DNA of 64,000 nucleotides, taken from positions 6,108 through 70,107 of the forward strand of contig JBDRWW010000008.1 in NCBI GenBank assembly GCA_039802605.1, in the 5' to 3' direction. This DNA comes from a candidate division WOR-3 bacterium. Its GTDB lineage: Bacteria; Hydrothermota; Hydrothermia; LBFQ01. The notes beneath the pieces are model-generated. The model was not told the DNA's origin, ran no database searches, and saw only the letters and a program-made list of their open reading frames with translations. Position numbers and translations under genes: made by a program. Shown here piece by piece: positions 25,746 through 56,200 of this stretch. How positions within the stretch are numbered: the first letter of the stretch is position 1; every line of letters begins with the position of its first letter.

Positions 25746-25819
25746 TGGGCGCGGGAGGACTCGAACCTCCGACCTCCGGTATGTGAGACCGGCGCTCTAA
25801 CCAACTGAGCTACGCGCCC
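25746..25819 (-). tRNA. tRNA-Val (CAC).
   Basis: Hand-folded cloverleaf: acceptor GGGCGCG/CGCGCCC, anticodon arm CCGGU-CUCACAU-ACCGG, T-loop TTCGAGT. Confidence 0.8.
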
Positions 25820-25824
25820 AGAAA

Positions 25825-25898
25825 TCGGGGTGCCGGGATTTGAACCCGGGACCTCTTCCACCCCAAGGAAGCGCGCTACCAGGCTGCGCTACACCCCG
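25825..25898 (-). tRNA. tRNA-Pro (GGG).
   Basis: Acceptor CGGGGTG/CACCCCG, anticodon arm CTTCC-TTGGGGT-GGAAG, T-loop TTCAAAT. Confidence 0.8.
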
Positions 25899-25909
25899 AT
25901 GTTTTTAAG

Positions 25910-25984
25910 TCGGGGCGCCCGGATTTGAACCGGGGACCTCCTGCTCCCAAGGCAGGCGCGCTAACCAGACTGCGCTACGCCCCG
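25910..25984 (-). tRNA. tRNA-Pro (TGG).
   Basis: Acceptor CGGGGCG/CGCCCCG, anticodon arm CCTGC-CTTGGGA-GCAGG. Confidence 0.8.
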
Positions 25985-25995
25985 CCCTTTATAAA

Positions 25996-26069
25996 TCGGG
26001 GCGAGAGGACTTGAACCTCCGACCTCCCGGTCCCGAACCGGGCGCGCTACCAGGCTGCGCTACGCCCCG
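25996..26069 (-). tRNA. tRNA-Pro (CGG).
   Basis: Acceptor CGGGGCG/CGCCCCG, anticodon arm CCCGG-TTCGGGA-CCGGG. Confidence 0.8.
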
Positions 26070-26082
26070 GAGGTTTTAAAGG

Positions 26083-26156
26083 TGGTCCCGGGAGGATTCG
26101 AACCTCCGACCTCGCGGTTATCAGCCGCGCGCTCTAACCACCTGAGCTACGGGACC
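26083..26156 (-). tRNA. tRNA-Ile (GAT).
   Basis: Acceptor GGTCCCG/CGGGACC, anticodon arm CGCGG-CTGATAA-CCGCG, T-loop TTCGAAT. Confidence 0.8.
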
Positions 26157-26180: not shown

Positions 26181-26993
26181 TTGAAAAGGTTTTATCAACC
26201 CGATAATACACGCTTGAAGTATTTAAGGCTTTTGCTATTGTTTTGGAAGACCTCTTTGAAGGTTGAAACGGAATACAGGTTAAACTTTTATTTTGCCGTA
26301 ATTAGCAGTTTTATAAACTTTGTGGGTAGCGTTTTTGGTTTAAGCGTATTTTACAAAATCACAAATACCCTTGGAGGTTGGACGTTTGAGGAGGCGTTGG
26401 TGGTTATGGGTATTTTCATCCTCATAGAGGGCTTTTCCCAGTCCGTTTTAAACCCGAATTTAAATTATATTGTGGAATATGTTTGGAAGGGCACGCTTGA
26501 TTTTGTTTTGTTAAAACCCGTAGATAGTCAATTCTATCTATCTTTTAGGAACTTTTCAATTTGGGGTATACCCAACGCCTTATTCGGTTTGGGGTTAATA
26601 ATTTACGGAGCCCTTAAATTGAAGGCCGGCTTGTTGGACATAATAACGGGAATATTTGCCGTTTTCATTTCACTGTTGATACTTTACAGTATATGGTTCG
26701 TTTTGGGCAGTTTGAGTATTTGGTTTGTGAAGATTTACAATATAACTTTTGTTTTGAGGCAGCTGATAGAAGCGGGGAGGTATCCGATAACCGCCTATCC
26801 AGAAGTTTATAGGTTTATATTCACATTTGTGGTACCGGTTATATTTTTAACAACCGTACCGGCAAGTTTTATAAAGGGTGGTGGAAAAACGATTTCGCTT
26901 ATTATTTCGATGTGCGTAGCGGTATTTTTGTTCGTTTTTAGCAGGATTTTCTGGAATTTTGCAAGGAGGCATTATTCAAGCGCATCAAGCTGA
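26181..26993 (+). CDS. ABC-2 family transporter permease (DUF990/ABC2_membrane_6-like).
   Basis: KGTLDFVLLKPV is the family signature and multiple TM helices are present. The ORF-track N-terminus (MVPGGFEPPTSR...) is antisense tRNA read-through. The start is probably TTG near 26181-26214. Confidence 0.5.
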   Translation: MKRFYQPDNTRLKYLRLLLLFWKTSLKVETEYRLNFYFAVISSFINFVGSVFGLSVFYKITNTLGGWTFEEALVVMGIFILIEGFSQSVLNPNLNYIVEYVWKGTLDFVLLKPVDSQFYLSFRNFSIWGIPNALFGLGLIIYGALKLKAGLLDIITGIFAVFISLLILYSIWFVLGSLSIWFVKIYNITFVLRQLIEAGRYPITAYPEVYRFIFTFVVPVIFLTTVPASFIKGGGKTISLIISMCVAVFLFVFSRIFWNFARRHYSSASS

Positions 26994-28856
26994 TTCTTTG
27001 GATTTCTGATATTCCGCTATTATCTTCTGCTGTAAGTCCTTTGGAGCCTCTTCGTAATGTGAAAACTCATACCTTATCCAACACCTACCCTTTGTTATGG
27101 ATCTTAGGGGAACTATGAGGTCATAAACATTTTCTGCGGGAATTTGTGCGCTTATTCTTTGGTAATCCCTTTCGTACGGCTCAAAGCCGAGTATCCTGCC
27201 TCGCCTCGCATTTACCTCCCCTATTATATCCCCCAAAAAGCTTTCGGGGGCGTATATCTCTACGGTGTATATGGGTTCAAGTATGTAAGGGTCCGCGCCT
27301 GCTGCCGCCTCTTTAAAGGCCAATGTTCCGGCAACTTCAAAGGCAAAGTTTGAAGAATCCACCGGGTGATATTTGCCGTCATAAAGCTCAACCCTAACAT
27401 CTATTACGGGATAACCCGCTATCACCCCTTCCGCCATAGCCTTCTTTATACCGTTTTCAACTGCCGGAATGTATTCTTTTGGTATGGCTCCCCCGAATAT
27501 GGAGTTTTTAAACTCGTAGTTTTGTCCCCTCGGCAGGGGTTCAATTTTTATCATTGCAATTCCGTATTGACCCCTTCCACCCGTTTGTTTTACAAACTTA
27601 CCCATACCCTGCGAGGGTTTCCTTATTGTTTCCCTATATGGAATCCTGGGCCTTGCCAGTTCAACCTCAACCCCGAATTTGGCTTTCAGTTTTGAAATTA
27701 TGCTGTTTGCGTGGGTTGTCCCCTGACATTTTAATAAGTGTTGGTGCAATTCAACATCGTATTCGTACGAAAAGGTTGGGTCTTCTCTCAAAAGCCTGTG
27801 TATTGCCTCGGAAATCTTTTCTTCATCGGATTTACCCTTGGGTCTAATGGCCACAACATAGGGCTTAAATACATCCTCAAAGGGTTCAAAGTTAAAACCA
27901 TTGCCGTTTGAGGTCAGAATATCGCCTATTTCGGCATCTTTCAATTTTGGTAATAGTATGAACTCGCCCGCCTTAACCCTTTCCACCTCTATCCTTTCCC
28001 TTCCAAAGGGTACATATAGATGAGAGATTTTTTCTTTATTTCCCGTTCTCTTATTAACCAACTCTATACCCTTGGATATTTCTCCAAAGGCACGGGCATA
28101 AAACTGTTCCCCCATGGATGGGTCAAATGTGGACTTAAAAATCACCGCAATGGGGGACTCTTCTCCCTTATGCGGTGGCATAAAATGAACCATAAAGAAC
28201 AACAAGTGCCTAATGTCGGCTTCATTTTCAACAAAGAATACGGGGTGAATGTGGGTTGTGGTTAATGCCTTTTCCATAACGGAAAACAGTTCCTCCCTAC
28301 TTATATCATGCCCTTCAAGGAATTCCTCTAAAAGTTTGTCATCCATCGAAATTATCTCTTCCTTAAAGTCTTCCGTAAGGTTTTCAAGGTTGAAGGGTTT
28401 TCCCGGAGGGGCAAAGGGTTTGGTATCGGGTCCGGCGAGTTCTTGTAGCACTTTTAAGGTGCCCTCCCAATCACCGGAGGAATACTGGGTTATAACAAAA
28501 CCCGAGGGTATGTTGTACTTTTGAGCCGTTAAATACGCGGCTTCAACGGAGGCATCCAAACCAGACCCCGCCTTTATAAAAATCATTGCCACATCGGCCA
28601 TCCTTATAGCCCTTTGGGTTTGGGGCATAAACTCTATAAATCCCGGCGTATCTATAAAGTAAAAATGGTCTTCGCTTTCTATATGGGAAAACACCTTAAC
28701 CGTTGTGGTTGAACCCCTATCCTGTTCATCCGGCTCAAAGTCTAAATATTTCGTTTCAGGCTTTGGTATTTTTTTTGCCATATACAATATACCCGCAAGG
28801 GTATGCGTTTTACCGGATAAAGGCTGTCCGGCGAATACAACGCTTTTAACCTTCAT
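26985..28856 (-). CDS. Elongation factor G paralog (EF-G-like GTPase with degenerate G1/G4 motifs).
   Basis: G1 is AGQPLSGKT and G3 is DTPG, but there is no NKxD. Domains IV/V are strongly EF-G-like (GGRGQYG, HPVDSSNFAFEVAG). Length is 623 aa. Confidence 0.7.
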   Translation of the reverse strand: MKVKSVVFAGQPLSGKTHTLAGILYMAKKIPKPETKYLDFEPDEQDRGSTTTVKVFSHIESEDHFYFIDTPGFIEFMPQTQRAIRMADVAMIFIKAGSGLDASVEAAYLTAQKYNIPSGFVITQYSSGDWEGTLKVLQELAGPDTKPFAPPGKPFNLENLTEDFKEEIISMDDKLLEEFLEGHDISREELFSVMEKALTTTHIHPVFFVENEADIRHLLFFMVHFMPPHKGEESPIAVIFKSTFDPSMGEQFYARAFGEISKGIELVNKRTGNKEKISHLYVPFGRERIEVERVKAGEFILLPKLKDAEIGDILTSNGNGFNFEPFEDVFKPYVVAIRPKGKSDEEKISEAIHRLLREDPTFSYEYDVELHQHLLKCQGTTHANSIISKLKAKFGVEVELARPRIPYRETIRKPSQGMGKFVKQTGGRGQYGIAMIKIEPLPRGQNYEFKNSIFGGAIPKEYIPAVENGIKKAMAEGVIAGYPVIDVRVELYDGKYHPVDSSNFAFEVAGTLAFKEAAAGADPYILEPIYTVEIYAPESFLGDIIGEVNARRGRILGFEPYERDYQRISAQIPAENVYDLIVPLRSITKGRCWIRYEFSHYEEAPKDLQQKIIAEYQKSKESA

Positions 28857-28980
28857 ATTCGGGTTATTCTACGGCGGGAAATTTTTTTATAATGGGCGAG
28901 CATCGCCAATAATTTCATCACAACTTCCTAAGAGTAGCCGAGAGGTTTTCTCTTCCCCGATCGGAAAAACTCCGTACCTT

Positions 28981-29005
28981 AAGACTTTTTTGCCTCTTTG
29001 CATCA
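28981..29005. repeat. 25-bp direct repeat copy 1 (AAGACTTTTTTGCCTCTTTGCATCA).
   Basis: Identical to 30595..30619. It flanks the restriction-modification cassette. Confidence 0.9.
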
Positions 29006-29075
29006 TATTCCAAATTAACATATTCCGTATATGCCGGCTTATACGCCGTTTCGCCTATCATTTTCACCTGGAAAT

Positions 29076-29943
29076 TCAAACAGCTTTCTTTATTCTCCTT
29101 TCTGCCAATTTTACATATTCTTCCTCTATCTCGTACCCCACATAATGCCTTTTCGTTTTTATGGCAGCAATAGCTGTTTGGCCACTTCCCATAAAGGGAT
29201 CTAAAACAACCTCACCTTCAAAAGTGTAAAGTTGGATTAATCTATAGGGAAGTTCTACCGGAAAAGGAGCGGGGTGTCCTACCTCTTTGGCCGATACGGC
29301 AGGGAATGTCCAAACGCTTTTTGTGAATTCAAGAAATTCATCTCGTGTAATCGCACTTTTTCTTTTATTTGGATTTTTCCGAGAAAAAGTTCCCTTTGAA
29401 AAAACTAAGATATATTCGTGAATGTCTCTTAATGTCGGATTTGTAGCCGAGCACCAACTTCCCCATGCAGTAGATGGGCTGGCAGAAGGGCCTTTATTCC
29501 ATATAATTTCCCCCCTCATTAAAAATCCCAAGTCTAGCATATCTTTAATGATATACGCGTGAAGGGGAATATATGGTTTCCTGCCCAGATTTGCAACATT
29601 AATACAAACCCTGCCTCCTGGAACAAGTACTCTATAAACCTCTTTCCATACTCTCTTTAAGAATTCAAGATACTCATCAAGTGTTAAATCCCTATCATAC
29701 TCTTTTCCCACATTATAAGGGGGCGAGGTTACAACCTAGCTCGTCCATCTTTTCGGAGGATTTGCAGAAAATCCTGTCAAGAAAATCTGGGGGAATGGGA
29801 TTTTCTACATATTCCACTTTTTGTTCTTTGGGTAATCCTTCGTACAACCTGCTTGAGTAGAATTGGGTAGAATCATGGCTTATCCTACCTGGGGAACCAA
29901 AAGAACTCGTTCTGGTGCCTTTTTTTCTTTTGCTCGTTTTCAT
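29076..29943 (-). pseudogene. Frameshifted beta-class N4/N6 DNA methyltransferase (PF01555-like).
   Basis: The C-terminal part is HPAPFPVELPYRLIQLYTFEGEVVLDPFMGSGQTAIAAI (motif I). Upstream in the same frame, VVTSPPYNVGKEYD (motif IV) follows a TAG. The N-terminal segment ...RIFCKSSEKMDEL sits in another frame (ORF 29713..29943). This implies a 1-nt indel near 29735-29745. Confidence 0.7.
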
Positions 29944-29991
29944 TTTAATATTCCCTCCAATAATCTATCCATCTTTTGTAAGGATTGTAAT

Positions 29992-30526
29992 CTATCTTTG
30001 TTTTCCGCCAGTTGATTCTAGAGCTGATAATGCTTTTCTACTTATTTCTACACCTCTTGGATTTGTACCTGGCTTAGGGAGTTTGATATATTTATTTCTA
30101 CCTATCCTATCAAAAAGTTTCTGTTGTGCCTCTACGGGGATGTAGTAAAAACCTCCTACACCTCCCCAATTAATTTGAACTAATAAAATATCACAGCGTG
30201 GATAATAGGTCTCTCTGAATTCTCTTGCCTTCTGAGTATCCACTAAATCCCTTACCAGTTATTGTTTTAATAGATATTGGTTTGCCAAATAATTTTACAT
30301 CAACCTCAGGTTCTGTAATTGGAATCTCGGTTTCAACATTTTCTTCTCCGAACTTATAGATAAGTAGGGCGATAATTATTCTTTCCCGGAGAGACCCAAC
30401 TTCCATTCCAATTTTTCCCGCCCTTGAACTTTCCAATTCTGCAATTTGAAATAAATATGGCAGCTTATTTTTTATTCTATTTACAAGTTCTTTATCTTCA
30501 AATATTTCTGCTAATCTACTTGACAT
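29992..30526 (-). pseudogene. Putative restriction endonuclease partner, split into two frames (111-aa and 83-aa ORFs overlapping at 30191..30243).
   Basis: Two same-strand ORFs overlap by 53 nt in different frames directly upstream of the methyltransferase. There is a strong AGGAGGA SD before the ATG at 30526. No family motif was recognised, so the endonuclease identity is inferred from context only. Confidence 0.3.
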
Positions 30527-30594
30527 CTTCTATTCCTCCTGTGTGGGGAATGGCGTAATTTATATCCCCCATAAGCCGAATATTATAATCCCGA

Positions 30595-30619
30595 AAGACT
30601 TTTTTGCCTCTTTGCATCA
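30595..30619. repeat. 25-bp direct repeat copy 2, including the reverse gyrase stop codon.
   Basis: Identical to 28981..29005. It begins exactly at the rgy TGA when read on the minus strand. Confidence 0.9.
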
Positions 30620-33600
30620 AAAACTTGAAAATACCTTATACAATTCCCGTAGCGTGTCCATATACTCCTTCTTCCCCTCTTCAATCTCATCCATTTCCTT
30701 TTCCAACTTCCTCGTAAAATCCTCACTAACATATTCATCAAACCGCGACTTTAAAAACCTATAAACGCTTATACCCAACTTTGTCGGGAACAAATACCCC
30801 CTCCTTTCAATCACATAACCCCTTTCAAGTAATGTCTGGACTATCTGGGCGTATGTTGATGGCCTTCCCAATCCCCTCTTCTTCATTTCTTGTATTAATG
30901 TTCCCTGGGTATAGGGTAGGGCTTTTGAAACCTTAGAGAACTTAACACCCTTTATAGTTATATCACCCTTTATTGCGGTTATGTTTTTGAGAACCAGGTT
31001 ATAGCCGTCCTCAACGATTTCCTTAACTATTTCCTCCACATGGGCAAAGCCGTTAAATGTTATTATTAAATCTGCCATTTTAACCTTTGCGGGTTTCATC
31101 TGGGAGGCTATGAACCTGTTAAATATAAGGGAATAAACCCTTAAAGCGTTCTTTGGATCTTCAAGTTGTATGCTGCCTATGTTCAACATTAACCTTAATT
31201 CATCCGGCGTTATGGGTCTTGTGGGCCTTATACATTCATGGGCTCCCCCTTCCCCCCAACTCCTCGGATAAAACATGTCTTCGCCGAACACCTTTTCAAT
31301 ATACACCTTTGCGACGGAATACTTACCCACATCCGAAACCCTCGTTGAATCCGTTCTGTGATATGTAATCACACCGTTTTCAAACAGGTCTTGCAAAACT
31401 TGCATTGTTTTTTGCGCCGATAGTTTGAGTTTTAAACTCGCGTCCTGTAATATCGTATCCGTGGTGTAGGGTGGTGGTGGCGATTTTTCCTCCTCCCATT
31501 CCTTACCCCAAAAAGCCCTAAACCTTTCCGGATGATTTTTCATCTCATAAACAAGGGATTTGTCTTCAACCGTAAAGGAAAAACTTCCAACTTCCGTTTC
31601 AACGATTACTTTATCAATCTTCTTTTTAAACTCGTATGCCCTCTCTATTATCCAACCCAAAACGGGTGTCTGTACCCTTCCCGCCGATAGGTTTTTCCTG
31701 TTATATTTATCCCATAAAATCCTTGAAAGCGTAAAGCCAACCCATCTATCCGCTATCCTCCGGGTTATCTGCGCCTTAACCCTATTAATATTAAACTCTC
31801 TCAGTTCCTCCAAGGATTTCCTAAAAGCCTTTGGCGTTATCTCGTGGAATTCAGCCCTATAAATGTTTTTGTTGTAAGGTGATAAAAGTGCGTATATATC
31901 ATAGGCGATTTTTTCGCCCTCCGCATCGGGGTCCGTTGCCACAAAAACTTCATCCACTTCGTACGATACCCTCCTTAAAGATTCAACAATATCCGCCTTA
32001 TCGTCAATTTCTCCTCCTTCACACGATTTTAACAAATACTCCTTTTCCGTGTGCTGCTCGCCGGTTTTCTTACACCTCTTTATGGTATCATAAATCCCCA
32101 CAAAATCACCATTATTCTCCAAAACCCCAAAGAATCCCCCTTCCGTTTTTAAATCCAATATATGCCCCAAGGAAGCGGTAATGGAGAGTATCCTGTCCCC
32201 AAGCGGAATTTCGTAAAATATTGAGTTTTTAACCGTCCTCATCTGGGGTTTCCCGAAGAAGGAAGCAATTGTTCTTGCCTTATTTGGCGATTCCACTATT
32301 ACCAATGTGGTTTTAAAAACATCCCTCAAATTCCCGGTAATGCCCCCTTTAATCACCCTCTTGGCCATCTCCCTATCCCTATCTATTTCCTCTAAAATCC
32401 CTTTTAAATTTAGCTTATCAAACTCCTGAAAGTCAATATCCATAACATGGAAATAGTAGGTTAGGCGTTTTTTAAGGCTGTTTATGGATTTCTTATCCCA
32501 ATACAAGACCAAACTCAAACCCTTTGTCAAACCCCCGGCAACCAACCTTGATGTTCTACCGCTGGCCTGAATATATGTTGAAACATCCGCCACAGTAATA
32601 TACATCTCCCCGTTTATGTATTCCAAGGATACATCCTCCGATTCGTTTAACTTCTTTATAAAGTTTCTATCTTCAAACTTTTTCGTTATAAAATCGTAAA
32701 TTTCTAAAACCTTTTCCTTTATCTTAGGATATTTATCCAGTTCCTCCGCCTTGATTCCCCCGTATTTACGCAGATATCTAATATATGGCGAAACCCTTAT
32801 CTTTTCATCGTCATCCAAAATGGAATAAATACCCACCAATAGGTTTAATGTATTTGCGGGTGAAGGCTGAACCTTTACGGGGAATACAAACTTTGGAACA
32901 TCCAAGAAAATCGCATATCTTATTATAGCCGGCAAGTCTATACCCCTAACGAGTGGATTACCTATATGTGCCAACCCAACCGCCAAATCAAATTCTCCCC
33001 TCTCCATTTCATCGTATAAATCCTTGGGTTTCTTTTCCGTATAACTCAAAACATTGAATCCCCTTTCCCTTAAAAACTTGACCACCACATCTATAACATC
33101 TTTTCCATACCTTGCGGATACGAACAATAGCCCGCCTTTCCCGATTTTCTCAACAATTTCGGGAATTGTATTCAAGGCATCCTCAAAACCCTTAACCTCT
33201 TTAACGCTATCAACAACATTCCTAACCGTGCTAATAGCCCTTTGTATATCAAACCCCAAAAGTTGCCTAAAAAGCATCACACGTTTGGTTTTCGGTTTAA
33301 GTGTTGCGGATGATATTATTAGAACACCTTTGTGTTTCCTATTCCTTATCTTTTCCAAGGCCTCATAATCTTTTTCCGTTTTGTTATCTTTTAGCGCCAG
33401 TTTGATTTCATCATCCGAGAAACCCAATATATGGAAAATCCCGTCTATGTTTTTTGAGCCCTTTAAAAACGAATCCGTATCATCAACAAAAATAAAATCA
33501 AAATCGTGGTTCTTTATGTTTTCCAAGTTCCTGTGCAAAAACATATTTGTTCCTATAAGGATATCAAAATCGCCGGAAATTATACCCTCCTTTTCCCTTT

Positions 33601-34063
33601 TCCTTCCCCTATACAACACCACTTTTTTATCGTATCCCAACTTGTTTAAAAATTCAACAATCCTATCGTATGCCTGTTCTGCCAATAGTTTTGTGGGGAA
33701 AATCAAAAGGGATCTCTTCGCCAATATGGATATTACTATTCCGAATGTGGTTTTTCCAACACCCGTAGGGGCAACTATTGCAAAAGAATTACCCATAAAA
33801 TACCTTTTAGCCCAAGTTTTCTGTAAAGACCACGGTTCAAAACCTATGCATCTTTTAAACACATCGGAAAAATATACGAGTTTATCTTCAACTTCGCACA
33901 TTTCCTTTAAGCCTTGAACTTTCCCAAAGTTTATCAAATCTTTGCATATGTTATCCGTATATTTGGGTAGGCATTTATAACACGGCAAACCCTTTACCAA
34001 TCTATCATCCGTAATTGGGCCACCACAATTCGGGCAACCGTTGTTTATTATGAAGATACTCAC
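30617..34063 (-). CDS. rgy: Reverse gyrase (N-terminal Zn finger, SF2 helicase-like domain, type IA topoisomerase).
   Basis: The N-terminal finger is CPNCGG...CYKC, Walker A is APTGVGKTT, and the TOPRIM is TLVIVESPNKARTIASFFG, as expected for the type IA topoisomerase core. Length is 1148 aa. Confidence 0.92.
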   Translation of the reverse strand: MSIFIINNGCPNCGGPITDDRLVKGLPCYKCLPKYTDNICKDLINFGKVQGLKEMCEVEDKLVYFSDVFKRCIGFEPWSLQKTWAKRYFMGNSFAIVAPTGVGKTTFGIVISILAKRSLLIFPTKLLAEQAYDRIVEFLNKLGYDKKVVLYRGRKREKEGIISGDFDILIGTNMFLHRNLENIKNHDFDFIFVDDTDSFLKGSKNIDGIFHILGFSDDEIKLALKDNKTEKDYEALEKIRNRKHKGVLIISSATLKPKTKRVMLFRQLLGFDIQRAISTVRNVVDSVKEVKGFEDALNTIPEIVEKIGKGGLLFVSARYGKDVIDVVVKFLRERGFNVLSYTEKKPKDLYDEMERGEFDLAVGLAHIGNPLVRGIDLPAIIRYAIFLDVPKFVFPVKVQPSPANTLNLLVGIYSILDDDEKIRVSPYIRYLRKYGGIKAEELDKYPKIKEKVLEIYDFITKKFEDRNFIKKLNESEDVSLEYINGEMYITVADVSTYIQASGRTSRLVAGGLTKGLSLVLYWDKKSINSLKKRLTYYFHVMDIDFQEFDKLNLKGILEEIDRDREMAKRVIKGGITGNLRDVFKTTLVIVESPNKARTIASFFGKPQMRTVKNSIFYEIPLGDRILSITASLGHILDLKTEGGFFGVLENNGDFVGIYDTIKRCKKTGEQHTEKEYLLKSCEGGEIDDKADIVESLRRVSYEVDEVFVATDPDAEGEKIAYDIYALLSPYNKNIYRAEFHEITPKAFRKSLEELREFNINRVKAQITRRIADRWVGFTLSRILWDKYNRKNLSAGRVQTPVLGWIIERAYEFKKKIDKVIVETEVGSFSFTVEDKSLVYEMKNHPERFRAFWGKEWEEEKSPPPPYTTDTILQDASLKLKLSAQKTMQVLQDLFENGVITYHRTDSTRVSDVGKYSVAKVYIEKVFGEDMFYPRSWGEGGAHECIRPTRPITPDELRLMLNIGSIQLEDPKNALRVYSLIFNRFIASQMKPAKVKMADLIITFNGFAHVEEIVKEIVEDGYNLVLKNITAIKGDITIKGVKFSKVSKALPYTQGTLIQEMKKRGLGRPSTYAQIVQTLLERGYVIERRGYLFPTKLGISVYRFLKSRFDEYVSEDFTRKLEKEMDEIEEGKKEYMDTLRELYKVFSSF

Positions 34064-34071
34064 GGCGGGAA

Positions 34072-34692
34072 TTATAAAGAGGGTAGGGAAAAGACCTTAC
34101 ACTTTATAATACTTTCCCCATCTCCTTCAAAAAACCCTTTACCCAACCTAAATTCTCCCGGAAATGAAATACCGAAAATTTCCCCATTTTCCGAAAAGAA
34201 AACCGCAGAATTTAATGGCAAAAATACCGTTGCAACCTTTAACCCCTTATCCAATAAACCGGTTTCAAGGAGATTTAGTATAACTTCCACTTTCCCCTCA
34301 CCGCTAAAAACTTCATATCCTTTGGTCAAAACCCTTTCAAATATTTCCCTAAATCCACCCGGAAGTAAATCCATTAACCCCTTTTCATCCTTTGGTAAAT
34401 TTTTCCTTATATTCTCTATCATCTCCTCCACTTCCTTTTGATCAATTCCAATAATTGGATACCTTAAATCTTCATCGGATACTGAAAGCTCCTTAATATA
34501 GGCATAAGGCCATTTTGCTATTTCTAAGAGGTTTTTCTTCCCCGCCCCCTGCATTCCCTCAATCCACCATATTTTACCCTTGCCCCCCAAAAACTCGTAA
34601 AAATCCCCATTGGGTCCCCTTAAAAGAAACTTTTTAACCATATCTCCTTGGGATACATCTTTAAGGAAAACTATTGGAGAGTATATCCTCAT
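34072..34692 (-). CDS. Hypothetical protein.
   Basis: A 206-aa ORF. Its ATG overlaps the upstream tatA stop (ATGA). It sits 8 nt upstream of rgy. Confidence 0.4.
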   Translation of the reverse strand: MRIYSPIVFLKDVSQGDMVKKFLLRGPNGDFYEFLGGKGKIWWIEGMQGAGKKNLLEIAKWPYAYIKELSVSDEDLRYPIIGIDQKEVEEMIENIRKNLPKDEKGLMDLLPGGFREIFERVLTKGYEVFSGEGKVEVILNLLETGLLDKGLKVATVFLPLNSAVFFSENGEIFGISFPGEFRLGKGFFEGDGESIIKCKVFSLPSL

Positions 34693-48046: not shown

Positions 48047-48118
48047 CTGCGGGGCAGGGACTCGAACCCCGATCTCCTGATCCAGAGTCAGGCGTGTTGC
48101 CAATTACACCACCCCGCA
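48047..48118 (-). tRNA. tRNA-Gln (CTG), with U1:A72 and discriminator G.
   Basis: Hand-folded: acceptor UGCGGGG/CCCCGCA, anticodon arm CCUGA-CUCUGGA-UCAGG, T-arm CGGGG-UUCGAGU-CCCUG. Confidence 0.7.
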
Positions 48119-53232: not shown

Positions 53233-56200
53233 TTAACTTTGTATTTTCTCATTTTCTACCCCCAAATATAAGGATAATATAACTTCCTCCTTTTCTTTTC
53301 TCTTTTCTCCCTTTTTGTCATATCTTCTGATAAAATCGGGTGGAATCACCTTTTGAAGAATGGCGATTACTTTCTGGGGATCTTTCATCTCACTTCCAAG
53401 ATTTTCTAACCCTTTAAGGGCTCTTCTAACGGTATTTTTAGGTATAGATCTAACCTCAAGGCTAGTTATCAAATCCCTTATGTATTCTTTCTGATCCTCG
53501 GTAAACGATTTGGAATTTTGAATTGCTTTCAGTGTTTTGAAAAGTTCATCAAAAATGTTCTTACCACGCTTATGGTTTCCAATTATTACTCCTTCCGAAA
53601 ATGCTTCTTTTTTGTTTTTTTTGAGTAATTCATAATAGTCTTGAAGCGGTAGATTTACCCTTTTTTCATCCGGTGAGCTTTCAAGAATTTTTGCGGCGGT
53701 CAGAAAATCAACTTCAACCGTCTTTTCTTTATCCGATAATAAGAATTTCATAAGTTTCCCCTTCCTGAAAAATGTAAGAAGCGAACCCGGTTGAGCGATG
53801 TCTTTGAGGTTTTCCGAAAACACTTTGGATGTGCGCGCTTTTTTAGGAAGTCGTTTTATTTTTTCAAAAAGTTCGGGGTTCTTATACCGTATCTCCTCAA
53901 TAATTTTTAAGTATTTCAGCTCGCTCTCTTCAACCCCTTCATCTTCTTCAATAATGGTTTTCCTGGAAAGGAGTTTATCAAAAAGTTCGTGCGAAGCTAT
54001 GGGTTCCCCTTCCGTCAAAATTGCGGAATCGCCTCCGAGTAAGGTCAGGAACGCTTCTATTTTTGACCGAGCTATTTTTGTAAGTTCAATTTCGGATTCC
54101 GCCTGTTTTGTTGGGAAAAAGTTAAATGTATAAATCCTATCAAACTTTGTATCTATGCGATTCACCCTTCCAACCCTTTGCATAAGCCTTACCGGATTCC
54201 AAGGTATGTCGTAATTTATAACTATATTTGAGCGGTGGAGATTAACGCCTTCCGAAAGGGTTTCGGTTGAAACTAGAATTCGGTAATCGTCTTTTTGGTT
54301 TTTTGCCCTTGCATCAAAATTTTCAATAACCTTATCCTTTACATATTCCGGTGATTCGCCGTGAAACAAAAGGACTACTTCCCCAAACCTTTCCTTTATT
54401 TTCGCGGTTAGATACTCCGCGGTTTCCTTTGATTCCGTGAAGATTATAATTTTTTTATCTTTAAGAATGGGGTTATTTTCTAACTCGTATAAAAGTTTTT
54501 CAATTTTCGGGTCCCTTTTTATTCCTTCCCACATTGATTTTATTTGATTTAGAATTTCAAGGTCGTTTTGCAAGTCCTCTTCCAATTGTGGTGTGAAATC
54601 CGAGCTTGGAAATCTTCTAACTTTTCCCTCATCAATGAGTTTCTGAATCGCTTCATCGTCTCCCTTTTCAACGAGATCAAAAACCTTGTTTATGTAATCT
54701 TTACCTATATATACATTTCCTTTTTGATATTCACTGATGAACATTTCGTATGAACGAATAAACCTTTCAATAGTTTTTCTGAATGCATAGAAACTACTTT
54801 CAAGACGCTTTACGAGGAGAACCTTCATAAATCCACCCAAATTTCGTTGAGCCTGCTCTTCGTATGGAATACGTTCTTTCAAGTATAGCAATGGCATATA
54901 ACGGGCATATTTGAAATCTTGGGTTATAAGCTCAACGGTTTTCATAAAGATTCTATCTTCTTCATCGTTGAGTTGATAATAAAAAGGTTTTGGATCTTCA
55001 ACCTCCGGAAATTTTATATTGTTTTTCTCAAGGTCTTCTTTAAAGTATTTCTGAATTTCAGACCTAGTTCTTCTTACCATAATATATTTGAGGACTTTAT
55101 CGCGTATCTCTCTCGCATTTTCTCTTGATATTTCTAAGAACCTGTTGTAATCTTTATGACGATAGGCCTCTTTTAACCTTTTTTCAAGCCCATTGAAGAA
55201 ACTTTCAAGGTCTGGAACACCGGGAATTGTGCTTTTTTTGGGGCTTTGGAAGAGTTTTATCTGGGCGAGTATATCTTTTGGAGAGTTATTGTAAGGTGTG
55301 GCGGAAATTAGTATTATCCTCTTATTACGACAGATTTCAAAAAGTTTTTCGTAGCTTATTGTTGATTCATTTCTAAATCGGTGGGATTCGTCTATGATAA
55401 TATTCTTATATTCCCTTTCTTGCACCAATTTTTTTGCTTCATCAAGTTTTCCAATAGATATAAATTCTGCTGGAATACGGAAATCGGAAAACACATTTGG
55501 CCAAGAACCCGGATTATTCCTGTTAAGTAGCGAAGGCGGCGCTATAACGAGCGTCCTACCATCAAGCTGCTTGGCAAGCATGGCGGCAATATATGTTTTC
55601 CCCAAACCTACCACATCCGATATAAAAACGCCTCCATACTCCTCCAATATTTTTTTAGCGTTTAAAACCGCTTGTTCTTGATATTTCAACCTTTTAAAGC
55701 CCTCGGGTAAGAAGTCTAAGAATATATCGTCGGTTTCTGATAAATCATCTTTAAAGTACTCGTATAAAAATTTGAGATAAAGTTCATAAGGTGTGATATT
55801 TTTATTAAACCAAGTCCTCTCATTTATAGTTCGCAGGTATTCCTCATTAACATCAACGGCATTTTCCCACAATTCCTCAAATTTTTGCAATGCAAACTCG
55901 TAATCCGCACGGTTTTTCAGTTCAACATTGAATTCAAGATTATCTTCAAGACCCGATTTTGTGAAATTGCTTGAACCGGTAATAACTCTGCCAACATCCC
56001 TATCACCCTCTTTGAATGTAATAATATACACTTTTGCATGGATTTTTCTTGAAGGATAGGCCCTTATTTGCAATTTCCCTTCTTTTATCCACTCAACAAA
56101 CTTGCGAATACCCTCTTCAACATGTAAATCATCTTCGGAATTTGTCATTTCATCTTCTATCAACCTTTCTACTTCTTGTTTGGTTTCGTGCTCCGATATT

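What the first reader, a model, noticed from the sequence alone, without database searches (positions are those of the whole stretch)
28981..30619. A decayed Type II restriction-modification cassette flanked by perfect 25-bp direct repeats is inserted exactly at the reverse gyrase stop codon.
AAGACTTTTTTGCCTCTTTGCATCA occurs at 28981-29005 and again at 30595-30619. The second copy begins precisely with the TGA of rgy when read on the minus strand. Between the copies lie about 1.59 kb of AT-rich DNA. It carries a beta-class N4/N6 methyltransferase whose TSPPY motif-IV segment is separated from its upstream N-terminal part by a 1-nt frameshift. It also carries a small upstream partner gene split into two overlapping frames, which I presume to be the restriction endonuclease. 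The arrangement looks like a recently acquired mobile restriction-modification unit that duplicated its 25-bp target and has since been inactivated in both genes. Two independent frameshifts in 1.6 kb could also be homopolymer sequencing errors. In that case the cassette would be an intact restriction-modification system with an unusual insertion signature.
Basis: seen in the sequence. Interest (0 to 1): 0.65.

Follow-up and report, generated by a model that had tools for sequence, protein, structure and literature searches.

The report
Decaying integron-type ThaI restriction-modification cassette
A two-gene restriction-modification cassette of a kind that moves between archaea and bacteria was inserted long ago at the end of the reverse gyrase gene and is now decaying by small deletions; the 25-bp repeats around it are real but are not the footprint of that insertion.

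Summary
The perfect 25-bp direct repeat is real: two copies, none expected by chance. It brackets a dead Type II R-M pair, a ThaI-family (CG/CG) endonuclease and a beta-class SPPY methyltransferase.

The "frameshifts" are neither 1-nt slips nor sequencing errors. Other assemblies of the same species carry longer alleles. Against these, the window allele has a 23-bp deletion in R and a 20-bp deletion in M, on top of fixed 28-bp and 26-bp 3' deletions. Six haplotypes coexist in a nearly clonal population.

Three relatives with 67-68% identical reverse gyrase (rgy) show the empty site: rgy TAG, 10 bp, then the ATG of an EF-G paralogue. So this is an insertion. A sister species (rgy 93% identical) carries the same insertion intact, as diverged as its flanking genes, so the insertion is old.

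The ancestral rgy stop survives as a relic beside EF-G, about 100 bp beyond the right repeat, and the sister species lacks the right copy. The 25-mer is therefore not a target duplication.

Elsewhere the same R-M pair (80-89% identical in ANME-type archaea, Thermoplasmata, Atribacteria and others) sits in co-oriented arrays bounded by attC-like hairpin sites. It is an integron-type gene cassette, here stranded and decaying. This is known biology; interest is modest.

The parts
30617..34063 (-). Reverse gyrase (rgy), 1148 aa. Its present C-terminus (...KVFSSF) and TGA stop differ from the ...(R)EFLQP-TAG end of relatives without the insert.
   Evidence: (zf_Rg, DEAD, Toprim, Topoisom_bac)
30595..30619 (-). 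Left copy of the 25-bp direct repeat. It starts with the rgy TGA. The sister species has a diverged orthologue here (5-bp indel, 1-bp indel, substitutions).
30559..30594 (-). Spacer between the left repeat and the cassette start. It is the remnant of an upstream attC-like element. The window species lacks 24 bp here that in the sister species carry the L'-R' half (GGGGAGTTTGTGTATCCTCGTTTA).
   Evidence: (weak CM hit on L024 11356-11436, E 0.11)
30527..30558 (-). Start of the conserved cassette (TTACGCCATTCCCC...AGGAGG...), including the ThaI ribosome-binding site. In unrelated contexts, homology begins here, at G|TTA(T/G)(A/C)CGCCATTTCGC.
30191..30526 (-). ThaI-family endonuclease, N-terminal fragment (111-aa ORF). 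It keeps the equivalents of Met47, Glu54, Asp82 and Lys93. It is cut off by a 23-bp deletion at about 30240, between AGTGGA repeats.
29945..30243 (-). ThaI C-terminal remains: the 83-aa ORF 29992..30243, then an out-of-frame relic of the last ~23 codons (29945-30016). A 28-bp deletion at about 30018, present in every assembly of this species, shifts the frame.
29713..29943 (-). Methyltransferase N-terminal fragment (76-aa ORF). It contains an A8 tract near its start that is A7 in one allele.
29076..29711 (-). Methyltransferase C-terminal fragment (211-aa ORF, PF01555). A 20-bp deletion at about 29736 puts a stop directly before VVTSPPY. A 26-bp deletion at about 29087, present in every assembly, truncates the tail (295 vs 311 aa).
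29025..29055 (-). Surviving 5' half (R''-L'') of the cassette's own attC-like site, GGCGAAACGGCGTATAAGCCGGCATATACGG. It is near-identical to the same box in unrelated arrays.
   Evidence: (only 5.5 bits: no longer a detectable site)
29006..29024 (-). Start of the lineage-specific block that replaces the centre and 3' half of the attC seen in the sister species.
28981..29005 (-). Right copy of the 25-bp repeat. It lies inside the inserted DNA and is absent from the sister species.
28882..28980 (-). Remnants of further inserted DNA: a short second cassette and a second attC-like element in the sister species. The window has lost stretches of 15-24 and 97 bp here.
28857..28881 (-). Relic of the ancestral rgy 3' end: ...CCG TAG plus the AATAACCCGAAT spacer directly before the EF-G ATG. 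It matches CAACCGTAGAATAAACCGTATG in the empty-site relatives.
26985..28856 (-). EF-G-like GTPase (623 aa), the ancestral downstream neighbour of rgy.

Best explanation
The interval is the decaying remnant of an integron-type gene cassette, part of a small attC cluster without an integrase.

**What it carried.** The cassette held a ThaI-like (CG/CG) restriction endonuclease and a beta-class, probably N4-cytosine, methyltransferase.

**Insertion.** It entered the last codons of rgy in the common ancestor of this species and a sister species. This separated rgy from the EF-G paralogue that originally followed it by 10 bp, and rgy acquired a new stop codon at the junction.

**Decay.** In the sister species both genes are still full length. 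In the window's species the insert has lost DNA through many 15-36-bp deletions and one of 97 bp.
- The endonuclease was hit first. A 28-bp deletion, present in every assembly, removes the C-terminal dimerisation helix; a 23-bp or a 22-bp deletion followed in some lineages.
- The methyltransferase then became dispensable and was lost independently by a 20-bp deletion (the window allele) or by 1-nt indels.

**The 25-bp repeat.** It is not the insertion footprint. The left copy is ancestral DNA at the rgy-insert junction. The right copy lies in a lineage-specific block that replaced the centre of the cassette's attC site. It is most simply a later, short copy of the left sequence, made by templated patch repair or short gene conversion during decay of that hairpin-prone site.

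**Shown:** gene identities, deletions, polymorphism, empty site, age of the insertion, attC family and cassette boundaries in other genomes.

**Inferred:** the mode of the original insertion, the order of R and M loss, and the mechanism that made the right 25-mer.
For: 1. **Gene identity.** PF15514 hits both ThaI fragments and PF01555 hits the methyltransferase. The intact orthologue aligns residues 1-209 to ThaI, PDB 3NDH, at E=5e-91. The active-site and intercalating residues fall in the retained N-terminal fragment.
2. **Deletions and polymorphism.** Fifteen loci from other assemblies, whose rgy and EF-G proteins are identical to the window's, all carry the cassette and both 25-mers. Alleles differ by deletions of 23, 20 and 22 bp and by two 1-nt indels. 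Across 23.4 kb of these assemblies there are only about 15 SNPs. The only other large deletion is 16 bp, in the gene upstream of rgy.
3. **Empty site.** In L025, L026 and L028, rgy ends ...LQP-TAG and EF-G starts 10 bp later. The window and the sister species keep CCGCCGTAGAATAACCCGAATATG in front of EF-G.
4. **Age.** The sister species (L017, L024) has ThaI of 210 aa and a methyltransferase of 311 aa at the same junction. Nucleotide identity to the window is 92.1% (ThaI) and 90.2% (MTase), against 91.4% (rgy) and 90.3% (upstream genes). There is 1 indel in 11.3 kb of housekeeping DNA and 16 in the roughly 2-kb insert, nearly all of them deletions in the window lineage.
5. **Integron-type cassette.** ThaI homologues of 209-210 aa at 80-89% identity occur in Methanophagales, Alkanophaga, Thermoplasmata, Desulfofervidus, Atribacteria and Cloacimonadota. 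The R+M pair sits in many unrelated contexts. Shared DNA runs from about 30 bp upstream of the ThaI ATG to about 36 bp past the methyltransferase stop. The flanks are a repeated element with ATAAC...GTTAT cores, and two loci (L034, L037) carrying an identical ThaI protein diverge right after GTT. The R''/R' plus L''/L' structure is 80.6% paired, against 19-45% when slid, with 6 compensatory pairs. The covariance model finds further co-oriented copies in arrays L033 and L037, four sites each. A tyrosine-recombinase remnant lies directly upstream of the cassette in L029. Archaeal integrons, integrase-less attC clusters (CALINs) and R-M cassettes are described in PMC9668308.
6. **The 25-mer.** The sister species has no significant right copy: local alignment does no better than shuffles. 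No direct repeat flanks the cassette there. No other part of the window-specific block has a second copy in the 64 kb.
Against: - The covariance model finds no significant attC in the window or in the longer alleles of this species. Only a 31-nt half-site remains, so the integron origin rests on other genomes.
- No integron integrase was found in the window or next to an intact array. The L029 recombinase fragment cannot be told apart from Xer-type enzymes.
- The left element between rgy and the cassette is only weakly attC-like (E about 0.1).
- The origin of the right 25-mer was not demonstrated. Only two species carry the insert, so loss of a right copy in the sister species cannot be excluded.
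- The rgy relic is short: 11 identical nucleotides plus partial matches.
- The two 1-nt indel alleles come from metagenome-assembled genomes and could be consensus errors. That would weaken the inferred order of R and M loss.
Confidence: 0.65

Rival explanations
1. A self-contained mobile R-M unit inserted at the rgy stop codon and duplicated a 25-bp target (insertion with long target duplication). The two copies are that footprint.
For: A perfect 25-bp direct repeat brackets R+M, with 0 expected by chance. Empty sites exist in relatives. R-M units flanked by long target duplications are a described class (PMC2853133).
Against: - The empty sites have only 10 bp between rgy and EF-G, and nothing alignable to the 25-mer.
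- The relic of the old rgy stop lies about 100 bp to the right of the right copy, so that copy is inside the inserted DNA.
- The sister species shares the insertion and the left sequence but has no right copy.
- The two copies are identical, although the left copy differs between the species by two indels and substitutions and the locus is about 9% diverged.
- The conserved mobile unit in other genomes ends about 37-55 bp inside the left repeat and about 33 bp inside the right one.
Confidence: 0.1
2. The two 25-mers are homologous parts of two attC-type repeats that flanked the cassette in the donor array and came in with it. The sister species later lost or overwrote its right copy.
For: In donor-type arrays, neighbouring attC sites share short identical stretches at similar distances from the genes. 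In L033, a 12-bp repeat lies 43 bp before the ThaI ATG and 47 bp after the methyltransferase stop; in the window the distances are 68 and 70 bp. The 25-mer contains GGCAAAAAAGTCTT, which resembles the attC motif CGCAAAAACTTCTT / CGGCAAACTTCA.
Against: - The sister species' downstream attC is the canonical form (46 bits) and matches the same cassette's attC in other genomes. The window's version departs from it after the L'' box, so the window state is derived.
- The right 25-mer follows a complete R''-L'' box rather than occupying the same position as the left copy does in its element.
- Perfect identity over 25 bp is unexpected after about 9% divergence.
Confidence: 0.15
3. The cassette is ancestral to the whole clade and was deleted in the 67-68% relatives. 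The apparent frameshifts in the window are assembly or sequencing artefacts.
For: Only one direction of change can be seen directly. Metagenome-assembled genomes can carry indel errors.
Against: - Three separate relatives have an intact rgy terminus and stop abutting EF-G. The window retains a displaced copy of exactly that terminus, which is the signature of insertion.
- The same R-M pair is 80-89% identical across archaea and bacteria in unrelated contexts.
- The 23-bp and 20-bp deletions recur identically in an NCBI assembly and two independent run assemblies, and they are not homopolymer changes.
Confidence: 0.03

Closest known systems
ThaI restriction-modification system (Thermoplasma acidophilum; R.ThaI structure PDB 3NDH, CG/CG blunt cutter)
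   Same: The intact orthologue aligns end to end with R.ThaI (E=5e-91). The equivalents of Met47, Glu54, Asp82 and Lys93 are conserved. The gene order is R then M, with a beta-class methyltransferase overlapping the R stop.
   Different: In the window both genes are broken. [quoted passage not shown] M is split just before motif IV. CGCG specificity and the type of methylation are inferred, not measured.
Integron gene cassettes and CALINs (clusters of attC sites lacking an integrase), including archaeal integrons (Ghaly et al. 2022, PMC9668308)
   Same: In other genomes the R-M pair is a discrete unit. It begins at G|TTA..., and ends in an imperfect-palindrome site with ATAAC/GTTAT cores and a covarying inner stem. 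It sits in co-oriented arrays of such sites. It is shared across domains. R-M genes are a common cassette cargo.
   Different: Here the cassette sits between two housekeeping genes, not in an array. No integrase is nearby. The attC sites are degraded beyond detection in the window. Integrase-mediated capture was not shown.
Insertion of R-M units with long target duplication (Furuta et al. 2010, PMC2853133, which cites the original H. pylori report)
   Same: R and M together are flanked by a perfect direct repeat with no transposase, and an empty site exists in a related genome.
   Different: The repeat does not align with the empty site, is 25 bp against a criterion of more than 30 bp, lies partly inside the inserted DNA, and is missing from the sister species that shares the insertion.
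Decay of R-M systems with the endonuclease lost first, leaving solitary or dead methyltransferases (established knowledge of post-segregational killing by Type II systems)
   Same: Every allele has a truncated R gene. M-inactivating mutations occur only on backgrounds where R already carries the 28-bp deletion, alone or with the 23-bp one. Alleles with a dead R and a full-length M exist.
   Different: What stands out here is several independent loss alleles coexisting in an otherwise nearly clonal natural population. Enzyme activities were not tested.

Membership tests
Type II R-M system, ThaI family | Endonuclease with the ThaI fold or sequence family | tested here: met
   PF15514 hits both fragments (E=4e-44 and 2e-31). 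The intact orthologue matches 3NDH at E=5e-91 over residues 1-209.
Type II R-M system, ThaI family | Catalytic and intercalating residues (Glu54, Asp82, Lys93, Met47) present | tested here: met
   The aligned positions M41, E48, D76 and K87 of the orthologue are conserved and lie in the window's N-terminal fragment.
Type II R-M system, ThaI family | Adjacent cognate DNA methyltransferase | tested here: met
   PF01555 N6_N4_Mtase with TSPPY lies immediately downstream. The same pairing is seen in all 9 other contexts examined.
Type II R-M system, ThaI family | Intact, expressible R and M genes in this window | tested here: not met
   R carries 23-bp and 28-bp deletions; M carries 20-bp and 26-bp deletions. 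Each is split into two ORFs.
Type II R-M system, ThaI family | CGCG cleavage and protective methylation | not testable with these tools
   Inferred from homology only. CGCG is under-represented in the window (observed/expected 0.50), but several other palindromes are rarer still.
Integron gene cassette / CALIN | attC site: imperfect palindrome with R'' (..AAC) and R' (GTT..) cores and an inner L''/L' stem | tested here: met
   Met for the family in related loci: 80.6% of cells paired against 19-45% when slid, with 6 compensatory pairs. Hairpin folds reach z=-3.7 and -4.4 for two members. In the window only the R''-L'' half remains.
Integron gene cassette / CALIN | Cassette boundaries at the G|TT crossover when the same cassette is seen in different arrays | tested here: met
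   L034 and L037 share the cassette and its attC and diverge right after ...AAAC(C)GTT. Upstream homology among contexts begins at GTTA(T/G)(A/C)CGCC.
Integron gene cassette / CALIN | Arrays of co-oriented cassettes separated by attC sites | tested here: met
   There are four model hits each in L033 and L037, all on the + strand, 0.1-1.9 kb apart.
Integron gene cassette / CALIN | At least two detectable attC sites at this locus in the window | tested here: not met
   With filters off, no hit better than 10.5 bits is found in 28700-30800, and none falls at the flanks. The sister species has one clear site (46 bits) and two weak candidates.
Integron gene cassette / CALIN | Integron integrase (IntI with its specific extra domain) adjacent to an array | tested here: inconclusive
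   A 72-aa C-terminal tyrosine-recombinase remnant lies directly upstream of the cassette in L029. It matches NF040815 at 1.5e-19 and TIGR02249 at 4.6e-17, but XerC/D equally well.
R-M insertion with long target duplication | The repeat aligns with a single copy at the empty site of a related genome | tested here: not met
   The empty sites have a 10-bp spacer and no similarity to the 25-mer.
R-M insertion with long target duplication | Duplication longer than 30 bp (criterion of PMC2853133) | tested here: not met
   The identity is exactly 25 bp.
Transposon / IS-borne R-M | Terminal inverted repeats and a transposase | tested here: not met
   There is no flanking inverted repeat above chance and no further ORF with a family hit between rgy and EF-G.

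The most novel reading that the evidence does not exclude
The repeated, independent knock-outs of R and then M in a nearly clonal hot-spring population could reflect active selection to shed a CGCG restriction barrier rather than neutral decay. The perfect 25-bp repeat could be a functional by-product, for example a substrate for integrase-independent excision or re-mobilisation of a stranded integron cassette. That would be a route by which cassettes leave non-integron sites.
Probability: 0.08. Interest if true: 0.55.

Novelty: new member of a known kind. Interest (0 to 1): 0.3.

Why it matters
- It corrects an attractive but wrong reading. A perfect direct repeat around an R-M pair is not necessarily a target duplication.
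- It gives a clean natural example of the R-M life cycle. An integron-type cassette shared between archaea and bacteria was captured next to an essential thermophile gene, was kept intact in one species, and is being dismantled in its sister, with six alleles coexisting.
- The alleles form a ready-made natural series for testing whether R must be lost before M. They could also serve to follow methylome change in hot-spring populations.
- None of this is conceptually new.

Tried and rejected
- **Sequencing error.** Rejected. The deletions are 20 and 23 bp, not homopolymer changes, and recur in independent assemblies.
- **Compositional anomaly.** Rejected. The cassette's GC lies within the window's spread.
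- **JGI metagenome scan for closer relatives of rgy.** Only a 29% identical hit was found. The reverse gyrase homologue search shows nothing between 93% and 68% identity, so no closer empty site is available.
- **A diverged right copy in the sister species.** Local alignment scores were no better than shuffles. No flanking direct repeats were found there.
- **Direct repeats flanking the same R-M pair in seven other contexts.** Nothing above 12 bp was found.
- **A source elsewhere in the 64 kb for the rest of the window-specific block around the right 25-mer.** None was found.
- **A longer degraded duplicate of the rgy 3' end at the right side.** A collinear 10-mer, GAATATGTTA, was considered, but such matches are at chance level.
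- **Microhomology at the deletion junctions.** It is clear only for the 23-bp deletion (AGTGGA). The 20-, 22- and 28-bp deletions show none.
- **Promoter or terminator role for the 25-mer, or a known RNA family.** Nothing above background was found.
- **Plasmid or phage carriage of ThaI.** There was no match in either collection.
- **A weak attC-model hit at 55759-55832(-).** At 16 bits and E 0.11, it was treated as chance.
Full report
**Observation**

The 25-mer AAGACTTTTTTGCCTCTTTGCATCA occurs exactly twice in the 64-kb window, at 28981-29005 and 30595-30619. There are no further matches at up to three mismatches, and none are expected in shuffles. The identity ends exactly at 25 bp on both sides.

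Reverse gyrase is 30617..34063 on the minus strand, and its TGA is the first triplet of the left copy. An EF-G-like GTPase is 26985..28856(-).

Between the copies, Pfam identifies two genes:
- A split N6_N4 methyltransferase, as 76-aa and 211-aa ORFs.
- A split ThaI-family restriction endonuclease, as a 111-aa ORF covering profile positions 1-89 and an 83-aa ORF covering positions 97-171 of 203.

The interval is not compositionally unusual. Its GC is 0.381 against a window mean of 0.411 +/- 0.032.

**The "frameshifts" are deletions and are polymorphic**

Exact-protein look-ups of rgy and EF-G returned 16 loci from NCBI metagenome-assembled genomes (GCA_0398024xx-028xx) and independent run assemblies. 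All have identical rgy and EF-G proteins. Fifteen span the whole rgy-EF-G interval, and each of these carries the cassette and both 25-mers. Several source assemblies contribute two of the loci.

Their alignment shows how the window allele differs from the longest allele (ThaI 185 aa, methyltransferase 295 aa):
- 23 bp are missing from ThaI, between two AGTGGA repeats.
- 20 bp are missing from the methyltransferase. This removes PDNSIHL and places a stop directly before VVTSPPY.

The window allele is shared by L005, L009 and L015. Six haplotypes are distinguishable, counting the longest allele, the window allele and these four:
- the 23-bp deletion alone;
- the 23-bp deletion plus A8 to A7 near the methyltransferase start;
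- a single-G deletion in the methyltransferase alone;
- a separate 22-bp deletion at the ThaI 3' end.

Across 23.4 kb these assemblies differ by only about 15 SNPs. The only other large deletion is 16 bp, in the hypothetical gene upstream of rgy. Sequencing error is therefore excluded for the two large deletions. It remains possible for the 1-nt indels.

**It is an insertion, and an old one**

Three relatives with 67-68% identical rgy (L025, L026, L028) keep the same gene order. In each, rgy ends ...LQP-TAG and EF-G starts 10 bp later. The window and a sister species retain CCGCCGTAGAATAACCCGAATATG directly in front of EF-G. That is the displaced last codon, stop and spacer of the ancestral rgy (window 28857-28881).

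The inserted DNA therefore spans about 30616 to about 28882. The right 25-mer lies inside it, about 100 bp from its right edge.

The sister species (rgy 93% identical; L017, L024) has the same insertion at the same junction, with full-length genes: ThaI 210 aa and methyltransferase 311 aa. Nucleotide identity to the window is:
- 92.1% for ThaI and 90.2% for the methyltransferase;
- 91.4% for rgy and 90.3% for the upstream genes.

The cassette is thus as old as the species split.

The same comparison shows one indel in 11.3 kb of housekeeping DNA and sixteen within the roughly 2-kb insert. Nearly all are deletions in the window lineage, of 15-36 bp and one of 97 bp. They include a 28-bp deletion at the ThaI 3' end and a 26-bp deletion at the methyltransferase 3' end, both present in every assembly of the window species.

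**What the genes are**

The intact orthologue aligns over residues 1-209 with R.ThaI (PDB 3NDH, E=5e-91). The published structure paper (PMC3025569) reports that:
- ThaI cuts CG/CG with blunt ends;
- it uses Glu54, Asp82 and Lys93 at the active site;
- it intercalates Met47;
- many of its dimer contacts are made by domain-swapped C-terminal helices.

The window's N-terminal fragment keeps the catalytic positions. Every allele of this species lacks the C-terminal helices in frame. I infer that the endonuclease was already crippled by the 28-bp deletion. This fits the one allele in which the methyltransferase is frameshifted while ThaI carries only that deletion.

The SPPY form of motif IV points to N4-cytosine methylation. 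This rests on general knowledge of beta-class enzymes and was not tested.

**The cassette is of integron type**

ThaI homologues of 209-210 aa at 80-89% identity occur in Methanophagales, Alkanophaga, Methanospirare, Thermoplasmata, Desulfofervidus, Atribacteria and Cloacimonadota. In nine contexts examined, the R+M pair is intact but its neighbours differ.

DNA shared with the window or sister cassette runs only from about 30 bp upstream of the ThaI ATG to about 36 bp past the methyltransferase stop. At those edges lies a repeated element of about 65-98 nt. It begins ...GGCGTATAAC and ends ...AAACGTTA. Two loci (L034, L037) that carry an identical ThaI protein diverge immediately after GTT, and upstream homology among contexts begins at GTTA(T/G)(A/C)CGCC.

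Evidence that this element is a structured recombination site:
- Ten such elements align as a family.
- An R''/R' plus L''/L' structure is 80.6% paired, against 19-45% when the partners are slid, with six pairs showing compensatory change.
- Two members fold clearly better than shuffles; others do not.
- A covariance model finds additional co-oriented copies in L033 and L037, four sites each.
- A tyrosine-recombinase C-terminal remnant sits directly upstream of the cassette in L029, though it cannot be told apart from Xer-type enzymes.

This matches the published description of bacterial and archaeal integron arrays and CALINs, in which restriction and methylation genes are common cargo (PMC9668308).

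At the locus studied here:
- In the sister species the downstream site is still recognisable (46 bits).
- In the window only its 5' half survives (29025-29055), and the model finds nothing significant.

**The 25-bp repeat**

The left copy is orthologous between the two species, with a 5-bp and a 1-bp indel and substitutions. The right copy sits in a block (28941-29024) that replaces the centre and 3' half of the canonical attC seen in the sister species.

Further observations:
- The sister species has no significant right copy and no flanking repeat.
- No other part of the window-specific block has a second copy in the window.
- The empty sites contain nothing like the 25-mer.
- Two copies that are identical after about 9% divergence of the locus also argue for a later origin.
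- By the criteria of Furuta et al. (the repeat aligns with the empty site and exceeds 30 bp), this is not an insertion with long target duplication.

I conclude that the right copy is most likely a secondary short copy of the left sequence, created during decay of the hairpin-prone attC region in the window lineage. The mechanism (templated patch repair or short gene conversion) is inference.

Two alternatives remain possible at lower probability. The copies could be remnants of two similar donor-array sites, or of an original duplication that the sister species lost.

**Verdict**

What is there is a stranded, decaying integron-type ThaI R-M cassette, with a well-resolved series of loss alleles in a natural population. 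It is a new member of known kinds and of modest interest.

Noticed in passing
window 34072-34692 (-), hypothetical 206-aa gene immediately upstream of rgy: This gene is also polymorphic among the near-identical assemblies. It is intact (206 aa) in the window, called as 160 aa in L002/L003, and split into 116+85 aa (L004) or 116+72 aa (L016). In L004 the split is caused by a 16-bp deletion. It has no Pfam family. A shorter homologue (144-145 aa) sits at the same position in the 67-68% relatives.
   Followed up: partly
whole window: Several 4-bp palindromes are strongly avoided: observed/expected is 0.08 for ACGT, 0.20 for TCGA, 0.37 for CTAG, 0.38 for GATC and 0.47 for CATG. CGCG, at 0.50, is only moderately depleted. 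This suggests a long history with several other restriction systems.
   Followed up: no
window 29918-29943 (-), 5' end of the methyltransferase gene: An A8 homopolymer lies within the first ten codons and is A7 in L001/L007. This could be slipped-strand (phase-variable) switching of the methyltransferase, or an assembly error.
   Followed up: no
L024 13103-13345 (sister species, between the R-M attC and EF-G): There is a short non-coding second unit, followed by a weak second attC-like element (ACAGCGGGCAC...CCCACCCAAATT...; only 5.4 bits with the model). In the window most of this has been deleted (28882-28940).
   Followed up: partly
L029 3235-3450 and L034 2799-2969: Fragments of tyrosine recombinase genes lie directly upstream of the ThaI cassette: a C-terminal HxLRH...LLGH...Y region in L029 and an N-terminal ...KWHPKEKHWSFP... 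piece in L034. These may be decayed integron integrases, with the R-M pair as the first cassette.
   Followed up: partly
window 25746-26156 (-) and 48047-48118 (-): A cluster of five tRNA genes explains the GC spike (0.55-0.60) seen in the composition profile. A sixth tRNA lies at 48047-48118.
   Followed up: yes
window 55759-55832 (-): There is a weak match to the attC-like covariance model (16.3 bits, E 0.11, GC 0.27). It was not checked against the ORF calls and is probably chance.
   Followed up: partly
L001-L016, genes downstream of EF-G (ABC2_membrane_6, AdoHcyase, a 636/661-aa methyltransferase-ligase fusion): Called lengths differ among the near-identical assemblies: 245, 270, 303 or 331 aa; 413 or 452 aa; 636 or 661 aa. 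The causes were not traced; 1-nt indels among the variants may account for some. These may be real variants or consensus errors in the assemblies.
   Followed up: no
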